Positions 1 to 64,000 of a stretch of DNA of 64,000 nt are shown piece after piece (position 1 is the stretch's first letter; each line of letters starts with the position of its first letter). Source of the stretch: Escherichia coli (GTDB lineage: Bacteria > Pseudomonadota > Gammaproteobacteria > Enterobacterales > Enterobacteriaceae); assembly GCF_001677475.2 (NCBI RefSeq), contig NZ_CP015229.1. The stretch is one strand, 5' to 3'. A program made the translations under genes and the position numbers. Below the pieces are notes generated by a model, which saw only the letters and a list, made by a program, of their open reading frames with translations, had not been told where the DNA came from and did no database searches.

Positions 1-100
1 TGTTACTCTGTTGCCGTTCTTATCCCGATAAATAGCGCCGGGGATAATTTTGGGATGTGCATAACCGCTGGCAGTCAAGCCAGATAAATACGTTCTCATG
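1..100 (-). CDS. Hypothetical protein, 5' end only (gene continues past window start); last visible gene of a coupled minus-strand operon
   Basis: ATG at 100..98 on minus strand, 5 nt after the stop of the 106..426 ORF, preceded by a GGGGA RBS-like stretch; frame open to position 1 (MRTYLSGLTASGYAHPKIIPGAIYRDKNGNRVT...). Confidence 0.35.
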
Positions 101-105
101 ATTAT

Positions 106-426
106 TTATCCCCGATTTGAATCAGTATTCGCTTTCTTTATGGCATTTAATGCATCTGTGGCATTTTCAATGGTGCACCGTAACGAAATATCAAAATGTC
201 CAAGCATTGCCAGTAACAAACCGATATTACCCATATCAATGCGCATGGCCTTTTCGTCATAGTCCTCATTTTCTGACGCATGCCACATCAGGCTACCAAT
301 TGACGCAACGGCCATTGATATATTGTCAGTCGCCCCATCCGCAGCGGAATAAACCTTTTTAGCAATATCATGCTCACAGTTAAAATGCGGATTAATCAGG
401 TACTGGTAATTTGACATATCAGGCAT
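106..426 (-). CDS. Hypothetical protein (106 aa), island cargo, unknown family
   Basis: ORF in track; its start overlaps the stop of the upstream 67-aa gene in the sequence ATGCCTGA (translational coupling). Confidence 0.5.
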   Translation of the reverse strand: MPDMSNYQYLINPHFNCEHDIAKKVYSAADGATDNISMAVASIGSLMWHASENEDYDEKAMRIDMGNIGLLLAMLGHFDISLRCTIENATDALNAIKKANTDSNRG

Positions 427-622
427 GGCACACCCCCTGACGAATACGGGCGGCGAATACCATCACGCAGCCAGCCGGGGAGTGCTGGCGTGCTTCCTGT
501 TCGCTGGTGGCCACGATGGTAATCACACGCGGTTTTGCGGCGCTCAGGGCGATAAAACGCCAGGCGAATTTATTCAGGTTGTGCGAATCCCGCCCTTGCG
601 GGTGTATGGTATGATTTCTCAT
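419..622 (-). CDS. Hypothetical small protein (67 aa), first gene of the minus-strand operon
   Basis: ATG at 622..620 preceded by GAGG at 5-nt spacing; stop overlaps start of the 106..426 ORF. The 334-aa track ORF 419..1423 is judged an artefactual upstream extension. Confidence 0.45.
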   Translation of the reverse strand: MRNHTIHPQGRDSHNLNKFAWRFIALSAAKPRVITIVATSEQEARQHSPAGCVMVFAARIRQGVCHA

Positions 623-660
623 AGCTACCTCGATACTCTCGTTATCGTTGGTGGTTAGAA

Positions 661-706
661 GCCCTGCGAGTGGTAACGACACTTGCGGGGCTTTGTTTTT
701 TGTTGC
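661..706 (+). terminator. Strand-specific intrinsic terminator-like hairpin (12-bp stem with two G-U wobbles, then T-run)
   Basis: GCCCTGCGAGTG...CACTTGCGGGGC followed by TTTGTTTTTT on the plus strand; wobble pairs become C-A mismatches on the minus strand. Confidence 0.35.
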
Positions 707-713
707 ACTTACT

Positions 714-766
714 GTTAATGTACGTACGTAATATTGATGATAATAGGAGTTACGTACGTACATGTC
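714..766. promoter_or_regulatory. Two copies of the self-complementary decamer TACGTACGTA about 32 bp apart; candidate operators for the adjacent RHH repressor
   Basis: TGTACGTACGTAAT at ~718-731 and GTTACGTACGTACATG at ~750-765; the second overlaps the ATG of the 762..953 gene. Confidence 0.4.
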
Positions 767-953
767 AACATTAAAGCGGGATAAATCACCACGCGGCGAG
801 GGATGGTCGCCGACATTCCAGATACGAATTAGCAAAGAACTACGCCAGCAAGTAAACGAGGCAGCAACCGCCGATGGCCTAACCCTCGGCAATTGGTTTA
901 AAGAATTAGCTCGTGCCGAACTAAAGCGACGCGGCATTGAACCTAAAGGCTGA
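762..953 (+). CDS. Ribbon-helix-helix (Arc/MetJ/CopG-like) DNA-binding protein, 63 aa
   Basis: N-terminal beta-strand pattern TFQIRISKELRQQVNEAA typical of RHH repressors; operator palindromes overlap the start codon. Confidence 0.5.
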   Translation: MSTLKRDKSPRGEGWSPTFQIRISKELRQQVNEAATADGLTLGNWFKELARAELKRRGIEPKG

Positions 954-956
954 TGT

Positions 957-1082
957 ATGACTGAAAAGCAGACCGATAACAAACTTTCTCTACCAGAGAA
1001 TAAACCAGCAGGCTTCTTACCAAGAAAAATCCTTGATGAGATCAAACGCCGCCAGCGGCGCAAGGCCAAAGAGCAGGAGTAA
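957..1082 (+). CDS. Small hypothetical protein (41 aa), basic C-terminus
   Basis: ATG 3 nt after the RHH gene stop (TGATGTATGA), same strand; not in track because shorter than 60 aa. Confidence 0.25.
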   Translation: MTEKQTDNKLSLPENKPAGFLPRKILDEIKRRQRRKAKEQE

Positions 1083-1139
1083 CCATCACCAGCGCCGTGG
1101 TGCGGTGAACTGTGGCGCACAGGGTTACAGGTATCTACG

Positions 1140-1319
1140 ATGACTGACAAATCATTAAAGAAATTATCCTCATCCAAGAAAAAACAACGCAAAAATGCGG
1201 TAAACGAACATGAACCGGAGAGATTCGCACCATGTGCGTTTATCCTTGAGAAGTACCTTAAAGAGTATTCTAGGAAAATACGCTCATTGCAGGCATGGCA
1301 GCGAATCGAGCCAGACTGA
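1140..1319 (+). CDS. Small hypothetical protein (59 aa), lysine-rich
   Basis: Manual translation MTDKSLKKLSSSKKKQRKNAVNEHEPERFAPCAFILEKYLKEYSRKIRSLQAWQRIEPD; same strand as the RHH gene. Confidence 0.2.
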   Translation: MTDKSLKKLSSSKKKQRKNAVNEHEPERFAPCAFILEKYLKEYSRKIRSLQAWQRIEPD

Positions 1320-1429
1320 TAGCATTGCCCACCAGCCAACAACCTGGTATTCTGGATATGCTCAAGTTTAGTGTTATGCCACTGGCGGCCCTCTGCGGTC
1401 GCCTTTGTTTTATGTGCCATCACTCCCCC

Positions 1430-1648
1430 TTACACCGTCTGCGTTCTGCGAGTGGATGCAAGATAAGCATCGAGATCAGTGCGCATATACAGCACTTTGC
1501 GCCCCAGCTTATGGAAAGGGATTTTTACCTTGCCAGTACAGGCCCAGTTCGCCAGCGTTTGATTGTTAACGCCAAGGTAGGCAGCAGCTTCAGCACGTGT
1601 AAGGCGGTCAGTTGATAAATCAGATTTCTTTAAATTCATATCTATCAC
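1430..1648 (-). CDS. alpA: AlpA-family prophage regulatory protein (excisionase-like HTH), 72 aa
   Basis: Size and sequence LTRAEAAAYLGVNNQTLANWACTGKVKIPFHKLGRKVLYMRTDLDAYL match the AlpA/Vis family; sits downstream of int as in CP4-57. Confidence 0.7.
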   Translation of the reverse strand: MIDMNLKKSDLSTDRLTRAEAAAYLGVNNQTLANWACTGKVKIPFHKLGRKVLYMRTDLDAYLASTRRTQTV

Positions 1649-1781
1649 CGTGTACTTCTAAGTAACAACGGTGATAAATATCAATCAATGGGTATTTTGT
1701 TTTTAGCCCAATAGCCAGTTGCTGTGGGGAGGTTACCAGTTATTTAGCCTTAATAGCCAGCTATTAAGATACACTAGCCAG

Positions 1782-2507
1782 CTATTGGGGGTGAACAAGT
1801 TCAAACGAAGAATATTTATCAGGTCTTGGTGGTTGTGCTCCTGATTCTTTAATCCATTTATCCAGAGTGTTTTTACTTACTTTCCCATGATAGTAAACAG
1901 AAAGCTCGTTCAATAAACCTGTTTTACTGGCTTTAGGGTACTTTTCCCATGTTAGTTTAATTACGTGCATAACTTCATTGTAATAATGATTTCTTGGTTT
2001 GCGCGCTTTTTCTTTCTGTGATAAGGATAAAGCATCTTTTATTTTTTTATCTTTTTCATGGTTCGATATAATTTCTTCAAAAAAGTCATTAAGCAATAAC
2101 TCAACACCAACCCTAGTAAGTTTGTCTGCGTGATTACGCATTCCGACATGGTACAATGCAACTGCTGAATTTAAAGTATCGACAACCTGACAAGATAGTT
2201 TACTATCAAATATTAAAAAACCACATGAATCCATTCTTATAGCTAATTCAATAGGATATTGCTCGATTTCTCTTAATTCTAAACCATAACACAAAAGAAA
2301 TTCTCTTGTTGGATACTTTGATTTATAAAAATAATCTCTTATATCATCAATCAAGCGTTTTATAGCCTCTATGGTGGAGTTTTTCGGGGATAAAGATACA
2401 GGAACGTTTAAAACTGAAGAGTCTCGCCCACCAGTAATTAAATCATTCATAACCGAATAAATAATATATTGTTTGACCGATATATTGTTATCACCCATAT
2501 ATGTCAT
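1782..2507 (-). CDS. Hypothetical protein (241 aa), strongly AT-rich cargo gene between int and alpA
   Basis: ORF in track; start overlaps the integrase stop (2491..2507); composition visibly more AT-rich than flanking genes. Confidence 0.55.
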   Translation of the reverse strand: MTYMGDNNISVKQYIIYSVMNDLITGGRDSSVLNVPVSLSPKNSTIEAIKRLIDDIRDYFYKSKYPTREFLLCYGLELREIEQYPIELAIRMDSCGFLIFDSKLSCQVVDTLNSAVALYHVGMRNHADKLTRVGVELLLNDFFEEIISNHEKDKKIKDALSLSQKEKARKPRNHYYNEVMHVIKLTWEKYPKASKTGLLNELSVYYHGKVSKNTLDKWIKESGAQPPRPDKYSSFELVHPQ

Positions 2508-3912
2508 TCTTTTCTTGTACTATAGCAAATAGTAAACGACGTTTTTCATCATCACTCATGCCCTCCAGTGCGGAAAGTAATTGCGCATCGATAGATTTTT
2601 TACTCTCCACCAGCCCGGCATGTTCCAGAATTGCCCGTTCTATCCGTGATGCTGGCTCCAGCAGTTCATCAGCACCGAAATGTAAATACCCCTGCGTTAC
2701 GTCGGCACTTCGCATAGTGCGGTGATTCATCAGGCGCTTGAGGATGTAATTACCCACGCCCACCAGCTCAGCAACCGTTCCGAACGTCCGGCGTGCGTCG
2801 TGCCACTTAAACGGGACAGGGAAGAGCATTTCATCGTTCGCCTCAGGAATGGTAGCCGCGCTTATCCGGTCTATGATGTGCCGTGTCTCCTGAATCACTC
2901 CCTTCACGCCAGGAAACACCAGCACATCATCAGCAGCTTTGTTTTTTAGCCTGCGAAGAAACATTTTCCGCAACGTATCAGTGATCGGCAGTTCAAGCGG
3001 ATCCCCGTTTTTCGTGGTGTCTATCCAGAAAAAGCGACCGCCCATATTCACGCGATCCCACGTAAGGCCAAAAACTTCTGATTTCCTCAGTCCGGTAAAC
3101 AGTGCCATTTCCACGGCATCACATACCGTAACAGCTATATCATCCCTTTCCTGTTCGCCCTGGTCGCGCACAGCAGCTACAGCAGCAAACCAGCGGGGAA
3201 AATCATGCAGGCGGATACGTTCCGTTTTTCTTACCGTTCCGTGCCACTGGCGCTTGGTGCTCAGTACCAGAGTCGGCGGATCCGGTAAAAGAGTATTACC
3301 CGCATCATCACGGTAATGATCATGCGCAAACCGACACACAGCACGTAGCGCACGCGCCCATAAATCGGCCTGTGCCTTGCTTCCTGTACCAACCCCAGCC
3401 CGTAACGTGGTTTTATCAGCACCGAACCATACAGCCCCATCAGTGATGGCCTTATGCCGTTGTTCCACCCGTTCGCGGGAAATACTGGCGAGGGTATGGG
3501 CCATCCAGTCACCGGAATAATTCTGTAATATGCTGCGGTACTGTTTTTCTGTGGAGGGTTTCAGGCGGTGGCCACGATTTTTTACGTAGGCGTCAATCGC
3601 CTCACTCAGCGTTATCATGGCCTTGTTGTTAGTGCGCTTTGCTATGTTCGGATTTATCCCCGTTGTGGCGACTTCGCCAAGGAGTTCCATAGCTTTAGCC
3701 CTGGCATTATCCACGCTCAGATCAGGAAAACGCCCCAGCGTTGCACGAATAAATTTTCCGTTACGCTTACGGGAAATGCAGAAACTTTTCACACCAGACG
3801 AACCTACACGGACACGCAGCCCGTTAACCTCCGTATCACCATATTCGACCTGTCCATGTTCCGGCGTTGGCAGTTCTGCAATTTTTACTTTAGAGAATCT
3901 GAATAATTTCAC
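2491..3912 (-). CDS. int: Tyrosine recombinase / phage integrase (P4-family), 473 aa
   Basis: N-terminal arm-binding pattern (EVNGLRVRV...GK...ATLGRFPDLSVDNARAKAMELL) and C-terminal catalytic motifs (HDARRT...GYLH); adjacent to tRNA-derived att site. Confidence 0.85.
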   Translation of the reverse strand: MKLFRFSKVKIAELPTPEHGQVEYGDTEVNGLRVRVGSSGVKSFCISRKRNGKFIRATLGRFPDLSVDNARAKAMELLGEVATTGINPNIAKRTNNKAMITLSEAIDAYVKNRGHRLKPSTEKQYRSILQNYSGDWMAHTLASISRERVEQRHKAITDGAVWFGADKTTLRAGVGTGSKAQADLWARALRAVCRFAHDHYRDDAGNTLLPDPPTLVLSTKRQWHGTVRKTERIRLHDFPRWFAAVAAVRDQGEQERDDIAVTVCDAVEMALFTGLRKSEVFGLTWDRVNMGGRFFWIDTTKNGDPLELPITDTLRKMFLRRLKNKAADDVLVFPGVKGVIQETRHIIDRISAATIPEANDEMLFPVPFKWHDARRTFGTVAELVGVGNYILKRLMNHRTMRSADVTQGYLHFGADELLEPASRIERAILEHAGLVESKKSIDAQLLSALEGMSDDEKRRLLFAIVQEKNDIYG

Positions 3913-4092
3913 TCATACACCCCACCAAGCGATCTGGTATCCTGGAAAATCGCTTGTTCTGCTCCAGGATACCTATAGGATACCGTAAAGAAGTATTTTG
4001 GGGTATATACAGGTATTTATACAGTAGTTTTAAAAAATGCTAAGGTATTGAAAAGTATCGCTAAGTATCTGTAAGTAAAGGGTTATCAACCA
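3913..4092. promoter_or_regulatory. Integrase upstream region with reiterated short motifs (GGTATCC/GGATACC inverted and direct copies; AAGTATC direct copies); candidate int promoter and arm-type sites
   Basis: Visible repeats CTGGTATCCTGG...CCAGGATACC...GGATACC and TAAGTATCGCTAAGTATCTGTAAG. Confidence 0.3.
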
Positions 4093-4139
4093 ACTCATAA
4101 TCGCTTGGTCGCTGGTTCAAGTCCAGCAGGGGCCACCAG
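4093..4139 (+). tRNA. ileX: Truncated tRNA: 3' 47 nt of a tRNA-Ile2(CAU)/ileX-like gene (anticodon loop through CCA); island att site, not a complete tRNA
   Basis: ACTCATAATCGCTTGGTCGCTGGTTCAAGTCCAGCAGGGGCCACCA matches the 3' portion of E. coli ileX as I recall it; no complementary 5' acceptor strand upstream. Confidence 0.6.
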
Positions 4140-4146
4140 ATATAGC

Positions 4147-4182
4147 AAAGGCTGACGAGAAATCGTCAGCCTTTTTCTTTTT
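4147..4182. terminator. Intrinsic terminator hairpin between tRNA fragment and yqjH 3' end
   Basis: GGCTGACGA-GAAA-TCGTCAGCC followed by TTTTTCTTTTT. Confidence 0.5.
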
Positions 4183-4191
4183 ATATATCAG

Positions 4192-4956
4192 TTACTTTGC
4201 GTGCCAGTAAGCCGCTGCACGTACCCGCTGTGGATCATACTGTTCCGCTTCAAAGCGGCGGCTTAAATTCTTAACGACTTTGCCTTCGCCGGTTATCCAG
4301 ATGAAGTAATCATCGGCAGGGATTTGCATCTGCGCCAGACGCGCATCTACTGCCTGCTCATCATGTGCCAGCCATTCGATATTAAAACCATCAAGGTGCG
4401 CGAGATAATCCTGACAGGCGTTATCCCGCACGCTAACCAGCGCACTAACTTGCGGTTTAACGGCAAGTTTGCTCAACGTTTCCAGGCGGCGGCGCAGTGC
4501 GGGCATTCCGGATTCATCGCAGACATACAGCTGATACGCGTAATCTTCCGGCACCACCAGCGAACCGCGGGGACCTGCCACCGTGAGTTTATCGCCCGGT
4601 TGCGCCTGCATTGCCCAGCTGCTGGCGACGCCACCTTCGTGAATAAAGAAATCAATCGCCAGTACATGGCGTAGTTCGTCATACAGCGGTGTATAGTCAC
4701 GCGACGGTGGGCGTGGTCCTTCCGGCCAGACGATGCCCTCTTCCGTTACTGTTGGCGGCACAAAGTGAGCATCAGATTGAGGAAAGAAGAGTTTGCTGTG
4801 ATCGTCAAAGCCGCGCGATGTAAAACCGTCCAGCGCCTCGCCGCCAAAGACAATGCGCTGAAAACCGGCGCTAATACGCTCAACGCGTAGCACAGTCAGT
4901 TCACGGAAGCGCAGATCATTGCGAACGCGCTGCGGGTAGCGGGGGGAGTTATTCAT
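4192..4956 (-). CDS. yqjH: NADPH-dependent ferric-siderophore reductase (siderophore-interacting protein)
   Basis: ORF in track; sequence and position match K-12 YqjH. Confidence 0.9.
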   Translation of the reverse strand: MNNSPRYPQRVRNDLRFRELTVLRVERISAGFQRIVFGGEALDGFTSRGFDDHSKLFFPQSDAHFVPPTVTEEGIVWPEGPRPPSRDYTPLYDELRHVLAIDFFIHEGGVASSWAMQAQPGDKLTVAGPRGSLVVPEDYAYQLYVCDESGMPALRRRLETLSKLAVKPQVSALVSVRDNACQDYLAHLDGFNIEWLAHDEQAVDARLAQMQIPADDYFIWITGEGKVVKNLSRRFEAEQYDPQRVRAAAYWHAK

Positions 4957-61791: not shown

Positions 61792-61967
61792 AACGACCTA
61801 CGTTAATTACCTCATTGACGGCATGAAGTGTATCAAAATGAAATGAACAGGATATGTGCGACCACTCACAAATTAACTTTCAATACTTTCCAGGGTATCG
61901 TTATTACAATTAAATACCTTTAAATATCAACAAGTTAAAGTATAAAAATCAGCATAAAGCCTGATTT

Positions 61968-62324
61968 TTGTCAAAAAAAATGACGGGGATAACCATATTT
62001 TATGGCGATAACATCATTCGTTATGTGGTTAATACAAAAAAGGGGCTGAGACCATATTTCAAGCAATTACCGGATAATTACCAGGCAAAATTTGAGTTAA
62101 ATTTAATGAGCAAGTTCTCAAATTTTATTATAAATAAACCATTTTCAGCGATAAATAATGCGGCACGTCACATTTTTTCACGCTATTTGTTGGAGAACAA
62201 ACATTTATTTTATCAATATTTTAAAATTTCGAATACAGATATTGATCATCTCGAACAATTGATTAACGTCAACTTTTTCTCTTCTGACAGGACGTCATTT
62301 TGTGAATGCAATCGTTTTCCATAA
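61968..62324 (+). CDS. tdcR: tdc operon regulatory protein TdcR (true start uncertain; may be shorter than the 118-aa track ORF)
   Basis: ORF in track, divergent from tdcA, AT-rich. Confidence 0.5.
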   Translation: MSKKMTGITIFYGDNIIRYVVNTKKGLRPYFKQLPDNYQAKFELNLMSKFSNFIINKPFSAINNAARHIFSRYLLENKHLFYQYFKISNTDIDHLEQLINVNFFSSDRTSFCECNRFP

Positions 62325-62549
62325 ATTCTTCTCCCCTCACAGGCGACGAATAGCATTTTGTGTTGAGGATCACAAAACGAATAATTGCTGGTCGCTGCGA
62401 TAAGGTCAGACAAAGACAACAAGGGGAATTTTCACAGAGCTTTTGATCGGCGTAGGCCACAGAATGTTGCTTCGTTTACTGTAACGCCGGGTAAATGAGC
62501 GTTTTTTGATAGTGCGAAAGAACCCTGCGAGGAAAATAAGCATCTATTA

Positions 62550-63119
62550 TTGTTTGTCATGATGACAAGGCAGGCATCAATGAAAGGCTTCCCAATTGCA
62601 CATATTTTTCACCCTTCAATCCCGCCAATGCACGCAGTGGTTAACAATCACAATAGAAATATTGATTATTGGACGGTAAAAAGAAAGTTTGCAGAAATTG
62701 TCTCCACCAATGACGTTAATAAAATATACAGTATAAGTAATGAACTGCGGAGAGTATTATCTGCAATTACTGCATTGAATTTCTATCAAGGCGATGTTCC
62801 TTCTGTCATGATCCGAATCCAACCGGAAAATATGAGTCCATTCATCGTAAATATTTCTACAGGAGAACATGACGATTATATCATACAAACATTAGATGTA
62901 GGCACTTTTGCACCTTTTGGCGAACAATGTACTTGCTCAGCCGTCAATCAAAAAGAGCTGGAATGTATTAAGGAGACGATTTCTAAGTATTGTGCAAAAT
63001 TCACCCGAAAAGAAGCCATCTTAACCCCCTCTGCGTACTTTAATAAAACCTGCATTACTTCAGGTTGTTGGCAAATTCTCTATTTTTCACCCGATCATTT
63101 TAATAATGATTTTTATTGA
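62550..63119 (+). CDS. yhaB: Uncharacterized protein YhaB (start uncertain)
   Basis: ORF in track; AT-rich. Confidence 0.65.
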   Translation: MFVMMTRQASMKGFPIAHIFHPSIPPMHAVVNNHNRNIDYWTVKRKFAEIVSTNDVNKIYSISNELRRVLSAITALNFYQGDVPSVMIRIQPENMSPFIVNISTGEHDDYIIQTLDVGTFAPFGEQCTCSAVNQKELECIKETISKYCAKFTRKEAILTPSAYFNKTCITSGCWQILYFSPDHFNNDFY

Positions 63120-63140
63120 TTATTTATAAAGGATAAAATA

Positions 63141-64000
63141 ATGTTCCCTGTTTCATCAATTGGTAATGATATTAGTAGTGATTTAGTCCGTCGAAAAATA
63201 AATGACCTTCCTGGAAGCCCCATAGAAAATAACCTCGAAGCACTAGCACCAGGTATAGAAAAACTAAAACAGACCTCTATTGAAATGGTCACTTTACTTA
63301 ACGCATTACAACCAGGTGGGAAATGTGTTATCACTGGTGATTTTCAAAAAGAATTAGCGTACTTACAGAATGTAATTCTTTATAATGACTCGTCTCTTCG
63401 TATGGATTTTTTAGGTTATAACGCCCGAATTATCCAACGATCGGACAATACCTGTGCACTTACAATTAATGAACCGTTAAAAAACCAGGAAATATCTACA
63501 GGCAATATCAATGTTAATTGTCCATTAAAATATATTTACAATGAAATCAGGAGGTTAAGCGTAATCTTTAGTTGTGGAACTGGAGATATAGTTGATCTAT
63601 CCTCTCTGGACTTACGTAATGTCGATTTAGATTATTATGATTTCACAGATAAACATATGGCTAATACTATTTTAAATCCTTTTAAATTGGATTCAACAAA
63701 TTTTACTAATGCCAACATGTTTCAGGTTAATTTTGTTAGTTCAACACAAAACGCCACAATCTCCTGGGATTATTTACTAAAAATAACACCTGTTTTAACA
63801 AGCATTAGCGATATGTATTCTGAAGAAAAAATTAAGTTTGTCGAAAGTTGTTTAAATGAGCTTGGAGATATTACCGAAGAACAATTAAAAATTATGAGAT
63901 TTGCAATTATAAAATCTATACCAAGAGCAACTCTTACAGATAAATTAGAAAATGAATTAACAAAAGAAATATATAAAAGCTCATCGAAAATCAACAATTT
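63141..64000 (+). CDS. yhaC: Uncharacterized protein YhaC (K-12 ortholog is pentapeptide-repeat family), 3' end beyond window
   Basis: ATG at 63141 opens a frame running to the window end (MFPVSSIGNDISSDLVRRKINDL...). Confidence 0.7.
   Translation, partial: MFPVSSIGNDISSDLVRRKINDLPGSPIENNLEALAPGIEKLKQTSIEMVTLLNALQPGGKCVITGDFQKELAYLQNVILYNDSSLRMDFLGYNARIIQRSDNTCALTINEPLKNQEISTGNINVNCPLKYIYNEIRRLSVIFSCGTGDIVDLSSLDLRNVDLDYYDFTDKHMANTILNPFKLDSTNFTNANMFQVNFVSSTQNATISWDYLLKITPVLTSISDMYSEEKIKFVESCLNELGDITEEQLKIMRFAIIKSIPRATLTDKLENELTKEIYKSSSKINN

What the first reader, a model, noticed from the sequence alone, without database searches (positions are those of the whole stretch)
1782..2507. AT-rich 241-aa cargo ORF translationally coupled to the integrase
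Its start codon overlaps the integrase stop, and its composition is far more AT-rich than the integrase or host genes. It occupies the variable slot between int and alpA. I see no recognisable catalytic motif, so it could be an abortive-infection, anti-phage or regulatory protein, or something new.
Basis: inference. Interest (0 to 1): 0.5.

Follow-up and report, generated by a model that had tools for sequence, protein, structure and literature searches.

The report
Integrase-coupled regulator gene in a phage satellite
The AT-rich gene is not random cargo: it belongs to an uncharacterised protein family that always sits between the integrase and the master activator alpA of a lineage of enterobacterial phage satellites, and it looks like a DNA-binding switch with a swappable sensor end that may decide when the satellite wakes up.

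Summary
A minus-strand ORF (1782-2507; likely start ATG 2498, 238 aa) overlaps the integrase 3' end by 8 nt (17 nt from ATG 2507). Its GC is 32.5% against 51% for int.

The "cargo in a variable slot" reading is only partly right. The window's left ~4.1 kb is the int end of a PICI-type phage satellite inserted in tRNA-Ile (ileX) of E. coli. In every related island examined, the slot holds one gene of the same unannotated family (85 representatives at 50% identity, Enterobacterales; none in 50,697 phage records). It always overlaps int by 4-20 nt and lies 108-172 bp upstream of alpA.

The protein has three parts:
- an acidic, hypervariable N-terminal part;
- a long helix;
- a conserved, basic winged-helix C-terminal domain (dN/dS 0.06).

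Starting at its stop codon is an array of four 14-bp sites spaced exactly 21 bp apart (AATAGCTGGCTATT). The site sequence changes with the C-domain class, not with AlpA, whose recognition helix is invariant. N-module, C-module plus operators, and int/alpA recombine independently.

Best reading (about 0.5): a DNA-binding regulator that gates alpA, with an exchangeable sensor domain, possibly for helper-phage signals. No experiment supports this yet. Defence, excision-cofactor and "repeats belong to AlpA" readings are less likely.

The parts
1782..2498 (-). Gene X: CDS of the int-coupled protein (238 aa from ATG 2498; the maximal ORF extends to ATG 2507, 241 aa; stop codon 1782-1784)
   Evidence: M4 invariant; dN/dS 0.19-0.23; AF2 pLDDT 91
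2196..2498 (-). X N-terminal hypervariable, acidic part (residues ~4-104 in 241-aa numbering)
   Evidence: for the whole part before residue 163, only 8% of pairs are blastp-detectable; median pI 4.8; dN/dS 0.34-0.52 for the first 160 codons counted from ATG 2498
2022..2195 (-). X middle part: helix 106-120 and long helix 124-169, semi-conserved; candidate dimerisation element (inferred). The recombination joint J2 (~2016) lies at its end
1785..2021 (-). X C-terminal conserved basic winged-helix domain (residues 163-241)
2491..3912 (-). Tyrosine integrase (Arm-DNA-bind_3 + Phage_integrase type). Its last ~20-33 codons (to ~2590) belong to the variable cassette
2491..2498 (-). int/X overlap (ATGGGTGA): X start codon 2498-2496, int stop codon 2493-2491
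1773..1786 (.). Site O1, AATAGCTGGCTAGT (1 mismatch to the palindrome); overlaps the X stop codon; invariant in all five class-A loci aligned
1752..1765 (.). Site O2, perfect palindrome AATAGC-TG-GCTATT
1731..1744 (.). Site O3, weak half-site-level copy (AATAACTGGTAACC), in 21-bp register
1710..1723 (.). Site O4, AGCAACTGGCTATT (right half perfect), in 21-bp register; the copy nearest alpA
1634..1685 (-). Stem-loop whose 3' arm contains the alpA Shine-Dalgarno (GGTGAT) and AUG
   Evidence: (dG -23.3 kcal/mol, z -6.7)
1430..1639 (-). alpA-like gene (HTH_17/excisionase family). Its first ~26 codons (to ~1556) belong to the variable cassette
1556..2590 (-). Exchangeable cassette bounded by recombination joints J1 (~2550-2590, inside int) and J3 (~1556, inside alpA), with an internal joint J2 (~2016)
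4093..4138 (+). Displaced 3' half of tRNA-Ile marking the island's right boundary

Best explanation
Gene X encodes a sequence-specific DNA-binding regulator that belongs to the core int-X-alpA module of a lineage of enterobacterial PICI-type phage satellites. Proposed steps (every step is inferred, none is shown by experiment):
- It is made together with the integrase in the quiescent island, through overlapping reading frames.
- Its basic C-terminal winged-helix domain, probably as a dimer or higher oligomer held by the long central helix, binds the array of four 14-bp sites. These sites start at its own stop codon and are spaced exactly two helical turns apart upstream of alpA.
- By doing so it gates expression of alpA, the master activator of the satellite cycle. 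The most likely mode is holding alpA off or blocking read-through from int-X; a helper-dependent activator role is the less likely alternative.
- The acidic, hypervariable N-terminal part is an exchangeable specificity or sensor module. It is plausibly the receptor for a helper-phage signal, by analogy with SaPI Stl.

Shown from sequence: the gene is real, its position is conserved, it is modular, the C-domain model has a winged-helix fold, and the phased repeats are co-inherited with the C-domain class. Inferred: DNA binding, the target promoter, the sign of regulation and helper sensing.
For: - **Fixed synteny.** int -> X (overlap 4-20 nt) -> 108-172 bp -> alpA in Escherichia, Salmonella, Klebsiella, Moellerella and metagenomic loci, down to about 25% protein identity.
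- **Slot always filled.** 86 of 5,426 complete E. coli genomes carry this int/alpA pair, and every sampled record in which both genes matched has one annotated gene between them.
- **Charge.** The C-domain has median pI 9.85 and net charge +7 across the 83-sequence family alignment; the N part has pI 4.8.
- **Selection.** dN/dS is 0.06 in the C-domain and 0.34-0.52 in the N part.
- **Repeat array in the window.** 1773-86, 1752-65 (perfect palindrome), 1731-44 and 1710-23, all 21 bp apart. It is the only such cluster in the window and in the whole island.
- **Repeat arrays elsewhere.** Comparable arrays of 3-4 copies, spaced mostly 19-22 bp apart and starting at the X stop codon, occur in most of the related loci. 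Per-locus significance is modest, p 0.005-0.3.
- **Footprint.** Within class A the sites are conserved and differences fall mostly between them. The Klebsiella locus lacks 22 bp, about one repeat unit.
- **Specificity tracks X, not AlpA.** L002 and L018 have essentially identical AlpA HTH and wing but different X C-domains and different repeats. The window and L002 share 97% Int and an identical AlpA C-terminal 43 aa, yet have different X C-domains and repeats. The window with L006, and L002 with L015, share an X C-domain class and a repeat motif despite about 60% AlpA/Int identity. The AlpA helix QTLANWA is invariant in all loci.
- **Co-inheritance.** The class-A intergenic region occurs in 22 E. 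coli genomes, all of them among the 23 that carry the class-A C-domain.
- **Mosaic joints.** They lie inside int, at the N/C boundary of X, and inside alpA, never between the X C-domain and the repeats.
- **Literature.** Whether Gram-negative PICIs have a global repressor is described as unclear, and alpA is switched on by helper phages through an unidentified inducer (PMC6092414).
Against: - There is no direct evidence of DNA binding, expression or phenotype.
- The repeats are physically contiguous with the C-domain coding region, so their co-inheritance could reflect linkage alone.
- The sites lie upstream of the likely core promoter rather than over it, which fits an activator or a roadblock as well as a classical repressor. 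No sigma-70-like promoter was detected on the alpA strand in the X-alpA intergenic region.
- X is co-directional with alpA and no terminator lies between them, unlike the divergent stl/str layout of SaPIs.
- A shared CCAG/CTGG core in several repeat classes leaves room for a common binder.
- In EcCICFT073, alpA appears to be the second ORF. This is inferred from the reporter fusion to "ORF3" in PMC6092414. That island is still helper-inducible, so a gene like X is not generally required for PICI induction.
- A small antisense RHH-like gene (762-953) is another candidate regulator in the same island.
Confidence: 0.5

Rival explanations
1. X is an accessory anti-phage, abortive-infection or interference protein carried in the 5' accessory region of the satellite. 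The variable N-terminal part recognises phage components, and the winged-helix domain only autoregulates or targets phage DNA.
For: - PICIs are reported to carry immune systems at their 5' or 3' ends (PMC11364771).
- The N part is hypervariable and shuffled by recombination, as expected in an arms race.
- The gene is AT-rich.
- It is made in the quiescent state together with int (inferred).
Against: - No PADLOC, NCBIfam, Pfam or PHROG match, for the window protein or (PHROGs) ten diverse members.
- No enzymatic or membrane effector domain appears in a confident all-helical model.
- The slot does not behave like a hotspot: it holds one family, one gene, in a fixed overlap with int, in every locus checked.
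- Recognisable defence cargo in a relative (GAPS4 in Klebsiella) sits downstream of the primase instead.
- The family is absent from 50,697 phage records.
Confidence: 0.15
2. The phased repeats are AlpA's own autoregulatory sites or another factor's sites. X is a DNA- or protein-binding protein with some other target (host genes, helper phage, another element), so the X-repeat association is only linkage.
For: - AlpA activates its own promoter in EcCICFT073 and EcCIMP1 (PMC6092414; PMC11773190).
- Xis/AlpA-type proteins typically bind direct repeats (general knowledge).
- Several repeat classes share a CCAG/CTGG core.
- The sites lie where class-I activator sites would lie (inferred).
Against: - The AlpA recognition helix and wing are invariant while repeat sequences differ sharply between loci.
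- L002 and L018 have the same AlpA DNA-binding region but different repeats.
- Recombination joints separate the repeats from the AlpA DNA-binding part but never from the X C-domain.
- A different element conserved in all classes, the TATCACCG/CGGTGATA inverted repeat at the alpA start, fits an invariant AlpA better.
Confidence: 0.15
3. X is an integrase partner: a recombination directionality or stabilising factor, made stoichiometrically with Int, that controls integration or excision rather than transcription.
For: - The overlap with int is conserved in all loci.
- The last ~20-33 codons of int co-vary with the X N-module.
- The basic winged-helix domain shows weak Exc/HTH_17 hits in a few members.
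Against: - X is about 240 aa, far larger than typical RDFs.
- Its repeat array lies about 2.3 kb from the att core, at the tRNA fragment 4093-4138.
- The motif does not occur near either island end.
- An excisionase-family protein (alpA) is already present, and AlpA over-expression alone suffices for excision in EcCICFT073 (PMC6092414).
- The int-tail co-variation is equally explained by the nearest conserved sequence available for recombination.
Confidence: 0.1

Closest known systems
Stl / Rpr master repressors of SaPIs and Gram-positive PICIs
   Same: - Encoded next to int, co-directional with it, and presumably expressed in the quiescent island.
- Two-part logic: a DNA-binding domain plus a highly divergent domain. 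In Stl the divergent domain binds different helper-phage proteins.
- Would couple the satellite cycle to a helper (PMC6092414; abstract of PMC6695447).
   Different: - No sequence or Pfam relationship.
- The DNA-binding domain is a C-terminal winged helix, rather than Stl's N-terminal HTH (from general knowledge of Stl; not checked here).
- X is co-directional with, not divergent from, the gene it would control.
- The putative sites are a phased array upstream of alpA.
- Helper sensing is untested.
Immunity regions of lambdoid and P2/186-like phages (repressor plus cognate operators exchanged as a cassette; repressor and int co-transcribed in P2/186)
   Same: - The regulator domain and its operators are inherited as one recombination unit between conserved flanks.
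- AT-rich regulatory module.
- A lysogeny-type operon joining a regulator and int (general knowledge of P2 C-int and 186 cI-int).
   Different: - Gene order is int then X.
- An additional internal joint allows the N-module to be swapped alone.
- The family is absent from 50,697 phage records.
AlpA / Vis (HTH_17, excisionase-family regulators of PICIs and P4)
   Same: - Small DNA-binding regulators in the same module.
- Weak HTH_17/MerR/Exc hits in a few X C-domains.
   Different: - AlpA is about 70 aa with no extra domains and is nearly invariant in its DNA-contacting parts.
- X is about 240 aa, modular and hypervariable.
[quoted passage not shown]
   Same: Domain shuffling of DNA-interactive proteins within Gram-negative PICIs.
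   Different: - X has no Bro-N, KilA or ANT domain.
- It lies in the 'integration zone' between int and alpA, which that paper describes as encoding only Int and AlpA.

Membership tests
Winged-helix / HTH DNA-binding regulators (fold level) | Three-helix HTH core with wing | tested here: met
Winged-helix / HTH DNA-binding regulators (fold level) | Sequence match to a curated HTH family | tested here: inconclusive
   The window protein has no Pfam hit. One to three of 58-83 members reach E about 1e-4 to 1e-1 for HTH_32, HTH_Tnp_Tc3_2, HTH_17, MerR or Exc.
Winged-helix / HTH DNA-binding regulators (fold level) | Cognate repeated or palindromic sites near a regulated promoter | tested here: met
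   Four sites spaced 21 bp apart at 1710-1786, including a perfect 6-2-6 palindrome. They are unique in the window and the island, conserved within a class, and class-specific.
Winged-helix / HTH DNA-binding regulators (fold level) | Demonstrated DNA binding | not testable with these tools
   Needs EMSA or footprinting.
Satellite master repressor (Stl/Rpr-like, functional class) | Adjacent to and co-directional with int | tested here: met
   Overlaps int in all loci.
Satellite master repressor (Stl/Rpr-like, functional class) | Divergently transcribed from the operon it represses | tested here: not met
   X and alpA are on the same strand and 142 bp apart.
Satellite master repressor (Stl/Rpr-like, functional class) | Homology to Stl or XRE-type repressors | tested here: not met
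   No Pfam, NCBIfam, PHROG or PDB sequence match.
Satellite master repressor (Stl/Rpr-like, functional class) | Repression lifted by a helper-phage protein | not testable with these tools
   Only indirect support: a hypervariable, independently exchanged N-module.
Known anti-phage defence systems / PICI defence hotspot cargo | Match to a defence-system model | tested here: not met
   PADLOC gave 0 families.
Known anti-phage defence systems / PICI defence hotspot cargo | Slot filled by unrelated gene families in related islands | tested here: not met
   The same family in 12 distinct loci, which cover allele types of the E. coli lineage plus relatives from other genera.
Known anti-phage defence systems / PICI defence hotspot cargo | Protection phenotype | not testable with these tools
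   Needs phage challenge assays.
Recombination directionality factors (Xis/Vis/Hef-like) | Small basic protein binding repeats in the att arms | tested here: not met
   X is 238 aa. Its repeats lie about 2.3 kb from the att core at 4093-4138, and the motif is absent near the island ends.
PICI-type phage satellite (the surrounding element) | int, alpA-type regulator, primase, a few capsid/packaging genes, no tail or lysis genes, tRNA att site | tested here: met
   The full island in strain TUM1886 runs tRNA-Ile, terS-like, capsid, decoration, SSB, primase, DUF4222, Icd-like, alpA, X, int over about 11 kb. The duplicated tRNA 3' half is at window 4093-4138. Mobilisation by a helper was not tested.

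The most novel reading that the evidence does not exclude
X is the missing helper-phage sensor of a lineage of Gram-negative PICIs. It would be a protein analogue of SaPI Stl, built on an unrelated fold. Its winged-helix domain and private operator array keep alpA silent. Its freely exchangeable N-terminal modules determine which helper phages can induce the island, so N-module swapping re-targets satellites to new helpers.
Probability: 0.3. Interest if true: 0.75.

Novelty: new variant of a known kind. Interest (0 to 1): 0.55.

Why it matters
How Gram-negative PICIs sense their helper phage is an open question. The founding paper states that a global repressor is unclear and that the phage inducer of alpA is unidentified (PMC6092414). 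Later surveys describe the int-alpA zone as holding only those two genes (PMC10111431).

This family is conserved yet unannotated and sits exactly at that control point. It has a private operator array and independently swappable modules. That gives a concrete and cheap experimental handle: reporter assays, EMSA and module swaps on induction specificity and satellite host range. It would also deserve a family model in annotation pipelines, where all members are now "hypothetical protein".

If it proves to be only an accessory protein, the finding is of modest interest.

Tried and rejected
**Sequence and profile searches that found nothing informative**
- Pfam, with the single sequence and two alignments.
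- NCBIfam, PADLOC and PHROGs for the window protein; PHROGs also for ten diverse members.
- PDB sequence profiles.
- tblastn against 50,697 phage records: no match.
- Cluster names are all "hypothetical protein".
- AFDB50 Foldseek returned only uncharacterised Enterobacterales proteins.
- A profile search with the C-domain alignment found no new domain architectures.

**Other negative or unproductive steps**
- Rfam on 1-4300 found no RNA family, so no known immunity RNA lies here.
- The genome-contig scan returned a single locus, in Kosakonia.
- The promoter scan found no sigma-70-like site on the alpA strand in the X-alpA intergenic region and no terminator between X and alpA.
- I tried to locate EcCICFT073 in the CFT073 chromosome to check directly whether it lacks X. 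Two regions were fetched and neither contained it. That point therefore rests on the paper's ORF numbering.
- The 2022 Cell paper on PICI immune systems is not held.

**Readings considered and rejected**
- Int arm-type sites for the repeats: they are too far from the att core.
- Replication iterons: the PICI ori is downstream of pri according to PMC10111431.
- Decaying pseudogene: dN/dS is about 0.2 and the family is conserved.
- The low per-locus significance of the repeats (p 0.005-0.3) means the argument rests on their recurrence, spacing and class-specificity, not on any single locus.

Full report
**1. Observation**

The minus strand carries an ORF at 1782-2507 (241 aa from ATG 2507). RefSeq and all homologues begin at the second ATG (2498-2496), giving 238 aa; M4 is an invariant alignment column. 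The integrase ORF is 2491-3912 (-). The two genes therefore overlap by 8 nt (ATGGGTGA), or by 17 nt from the first ATG.

GC content is 32.5% (GC3 24.8%). The comparison values are 50.9% for int, 47% for alpA, 55% for the host gene nfeF and 50% for the whole window. The ORF falls below the 1st percentile (33.7%) of 726-nt windows; only the host tdcR-yhaBC region near 63 kb is as AT-rich. Comparison with two 97%-identical alleles gives dN/dS of 0.19-0.23, so this is a genuine protein-coding gene.

**2. Context**

The window is E. coli chromosome. Bases 1 to about 4138 are the int-proximal end of a roughly 11-kb island inserted in the tRNA-Ile gene between mug and nfeF (yqjH).

The full element in strain TUM1886 reads: tRNA-Ile, terS-like, capsid, head decoration, SSB, primase, DUF4222, Icd-like, alpA-like HTH, X, int. 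This is the layout of a PICI-type phage satellite. ARAGORN finds no tRNA in the window, because only the displaced 46-nt 3' half of the tRNA is present (4093-4138). The intact gene lies at the other end of the island, outside the window.

**3. Not cargo: a conserved family in a fixed position**

An exhaustive HMMER scan of 1.84 billion cluster representatives finds 85 relatives (E <= 1e-3). They are 65-273 aa long, mostly about 190-270 aa, and match mainly through their C-terminal 80-130 residues. AFDB50 returns only "uncharacterized protein" entries, almost all from Enterobacterales genera. Every source name is "hypothetical protein". The family does not occur in 50,697 phage records.

Every homologue whose context I fetched has the same layout. 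These are Salmonella, Klebsiella, Moellerella and several metagenomic loci, with identities down to about 25%. In each, the gene directly follows an Arm-DNA-bind_3/Phage_integrase gene and overlaps it by 4-20 nt. An HTH_17 alpA-like gene follows 108-172 bp downstream, inside PICI-like gene sets.

Eighty-six of 5,426 complete E. coli genomes carry this int/alpA pair at 94% identity or better. In every sampled record where both genes matched, one "hypothetical protein" is annotated between them. The window allele itself is in 23 genomes. The commonest alternative allele (WP_001293559.1) is a distant homologue, 27% identical over the C-terminal half. The slot is therefore variable in sequence but not in kind.

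AT-richness is also a family trait: 29-39% GC against 37-51% for the adjacent int.

**4. Architecture**

AlphaFold2 with an 83-sequence alignment gives a confident all-helical model (pLDDT 91, pTM 0.76). It shows an N-terminal helical part, a 46-residue helix (124-169), and a compact C-terminal three-helix domain with a tail.

| Property | C-domain | N part |
|---|---|---|
| Median pI across the family | 9.85 (net charge +7) | 4.8 |
| Pairs detectable by blastp | 98% | 8% |
| dN/dS | 0.06 | 0.34-0.52 |

No catalytic, membrane or known defence domain is detectable.

**5. Modularity**

Sliding-window comparison of natural alleles reveals three sharp recombination joints:
- J1 lies 60-100 nt before the int stop codon (window ~2550-2590).
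- J2 lies at X codon ~160, the end of the long helix (~2016).
- J3 lies within the first ~26 codons of alpA (~1556).

Three kinds of natural recombinant illustrate this:
- The window and strain KC-Dl-1 share the C-domain, intergenic region and alpA at 100% identity but have unrelated N-modules.
- Strains 2013C-3250 and CFSAN064036 show the same pattern in another class.
- The window and 2013C-3250 share int (97%) and the alpA body but differ in all of X and the intergenic region.

**6. A private operator array**

Beginning at the X stop codon there are four copies of a 14-bp element at exactly 21-bp intervals:

| Site | Coordinates | Match to AATAGC-TG-GCTATT |
|---|---|---|
| O1 | 1773-1786 | 1 mismatch |
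| O2 | 1752-1765 | perfect palindrome |
| O3 | 1731-1744 | half-site level |
| O4 | 1710-1723 | right half perfect |

This is the only such cluster in the 64-kb window and in the whole island.

Most of the related loci have 3-4 repeats, spaced mostly 19-22 bp apart, at the same place. Per-locus significance is modest, p 0.005-0.3. Within class A the sites are conserved and differences fall mostly between them. The Klebsiella locus lacks 22 bp, about one repeat unit.

The repeat sequence differs by class:

| Class | Repeat motif |
|---|---|
| A | AATAGCTGGCTATT |
| B | TAAnCCAGAT |
| C | CATAGCGAGCTATG |
| D | AAGCTRGCTATT |
| E | CAGCTATTCCCCTGG |

The class follows the X C-domain, not AlpA or Int:
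- L002 and L018 have essentially the same AlpA HTH and wing but different X C-domains and different repeats.
- L012 and L014 have 81% Int and 75% AlpA identity but 31% X C-domain identity and different repeats.
- The window with L006, and L002 with L015, share a C-domain class and a motif at only about 60% Int/AlpA identity.
- The AlpA recognition helix (QTLANWA) and wing are invariant in all loci.

The class-A intergenic region is found in 22 E. coli genomes, all of them among the 23 that have the class-A C-domain. No recombinant separates the repeats from the C-domain, whereas several separate them from AlpA's DNA-binding part.

Linkage is a confound, because the repeats abut the C-domain coding region. 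Still, the pattern is what a regulator-operator cassette predicts, and the reverse of what AlpA sites would predict.

**7. Proposed mechanism**

X is made with Int from the quiescent island through overlapping frames; SD-like motifs sit inside the int 3' end in most alleles. X binds O1-O4 through its winged-helix domain as an oligomer on one face of the DNA and gates alpA. The exchangeable acidic N-module supplies specificity, most plausibly as a receptor for a helper-phage product.

A strong stem-loop at 1634-1685 (dG -23.3 kcal/mol, z -6.7) places the alpA Shine-Dalgarno (GGTGAT) and AUG in its 3' arm. The stem recurs in nine loci, with compensatory changes in 6 of 15 pairs. It would keep read-through int-X transcripts from being translated into AlpA. 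This fits a design in which alpA must stay silent while int-X is expressed (inference).

Published work shows that alpA is the master activator and is switched on by helper phages through an unknown inducer. It also states that a global repressor in Gram-negative PICIs is "unclear" (PMC6092414; PMC11773190).

The sign of regulation is not determined. The sites lie upstream of the probable core promoter, so a roadblock/repressor role and an activator role are both possible.

**8. Caveats and rivals**

- Nothing here shows binding, expression or phenotype.
- EcCICFT073 seems to have alpA as its second ORF and is nevertheless helper-inducible (inferred), so X cannot be a universal requirement.
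- A small antisense RHH-like ORF (762-953, weak YlcI/YnfO match) is another candidate regulator.

The defence-cargo reading has a literature prior: immune systems occur at PICI 5' ends (PMC11364771), and accessory genes occur between int and the regulator (PMC10085698). It lacks positive evidence and does not fit the one-family, fixed-overlap pattern. In a Klebsiella relative, recognisable defence genes (GAPS4) sit after the primase instead.

An integrase-cofactor role is suggested by the overlap and by co-variation of the int tail with the N-module. It is disfavoured by protein size and by the distance of the sites from att.

**9. Novelty**

The family is unannotated and, in the literature I could search, undescribed. 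The one survey that names the zone lists only Int and AlpA (PMC10111431).

Functionally it would be a new variant of a known kind: a mobile-element maintenance or sensing regulator with a cognate operator cassette. The nearest analogues are Stl and phage immunity regions. It differs in being built on an unrelated fold, with the domain order reversed relative to Stl (from general knowledge of Stl), coupled to int, and with two-level modular exchange.

Interest is moderate to high for satellite biology if the helper-sensing role is confirmed, and modest otherwise.

Noticed in passing
window 1634-1685 (-): A strong stem-loop (dG -23.3 kcal/mol, z -6.7) sequesters the alpA Shine-Dalgarno (GGTGAT) and AUG. 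The stem is kept in nine related loci, with compensatory changes in 6 of 15 pairs. It could block alpA translation on read-through transcripts from int-X, or be a conserved protein-binding inverted repeat (TATCACCG/CGGTGATA), for example for AlpA itself.
   Followed up: partly
window 4093-4138 (+) and 3966-3986: The displaced 46-nt 3' half of tRNA-Ile marks the island's right boundary. A 21-bp element, AGGATACCTATAGGATACCGT (GGATACC twice), lies between int and this boundary and recurs 48 nt past the intact tRNA at the other island end (L001 11568-11588). These are probably integrase arm-type sites.
   Followed up: partly
window 762-953 (+) and 957-1082 (+): Two small ORFs lie antisense to the main island operon, between alpA and the Icd-like gene. 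The first looks like a ribbon-helix-helix protein (weak YlcI/YnfO hit, E 4e-4). In relatives this position holds YlcI/YnfO, HicB-antitoxin-like or DUF3950 genes. It is divergent from the Icd-like/primase operon, so it is another candidate island regulator.
   Followed up: partly
window ~2491-2590 (-), 3' end of int: The last ~20-33 codons of the integrase (a C-terminal tail beyond the catalytic Tyr region) diverge together with the X N-module between otherwise ~97%-identical integrases. This may be a recombination-joint effect or a functional Int-tail/X pairing.
   Followed up: no
L006 14265-16345 (Klebsiella relative of the island): GAPS4-type defence genes (PDDEXK_GAPS4, GAPS4b_N) sit downstream of the primase. 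This matches the accessory region described for PICIs and shows that recognisable defence cargo in this lineage is not in the int-alpA slot.
   Followed up: no
window ~61900-63900: A host region (tdcR, yhaB/yhaC side of the tdc operon) with 30-32% GC is the only other part of the window as AT-rich as the ORF. AT-richness alone is therefore not unique to the island gene.
   Followed up: partly
L014 6777-7155: In one relative the gene caller missed the alpA-like ORF, which is present by translation (MEQINTDKKLTRKEAAKEL...). The same annotation problem has been reported for alpA elsewhere.
   Followed up: yes
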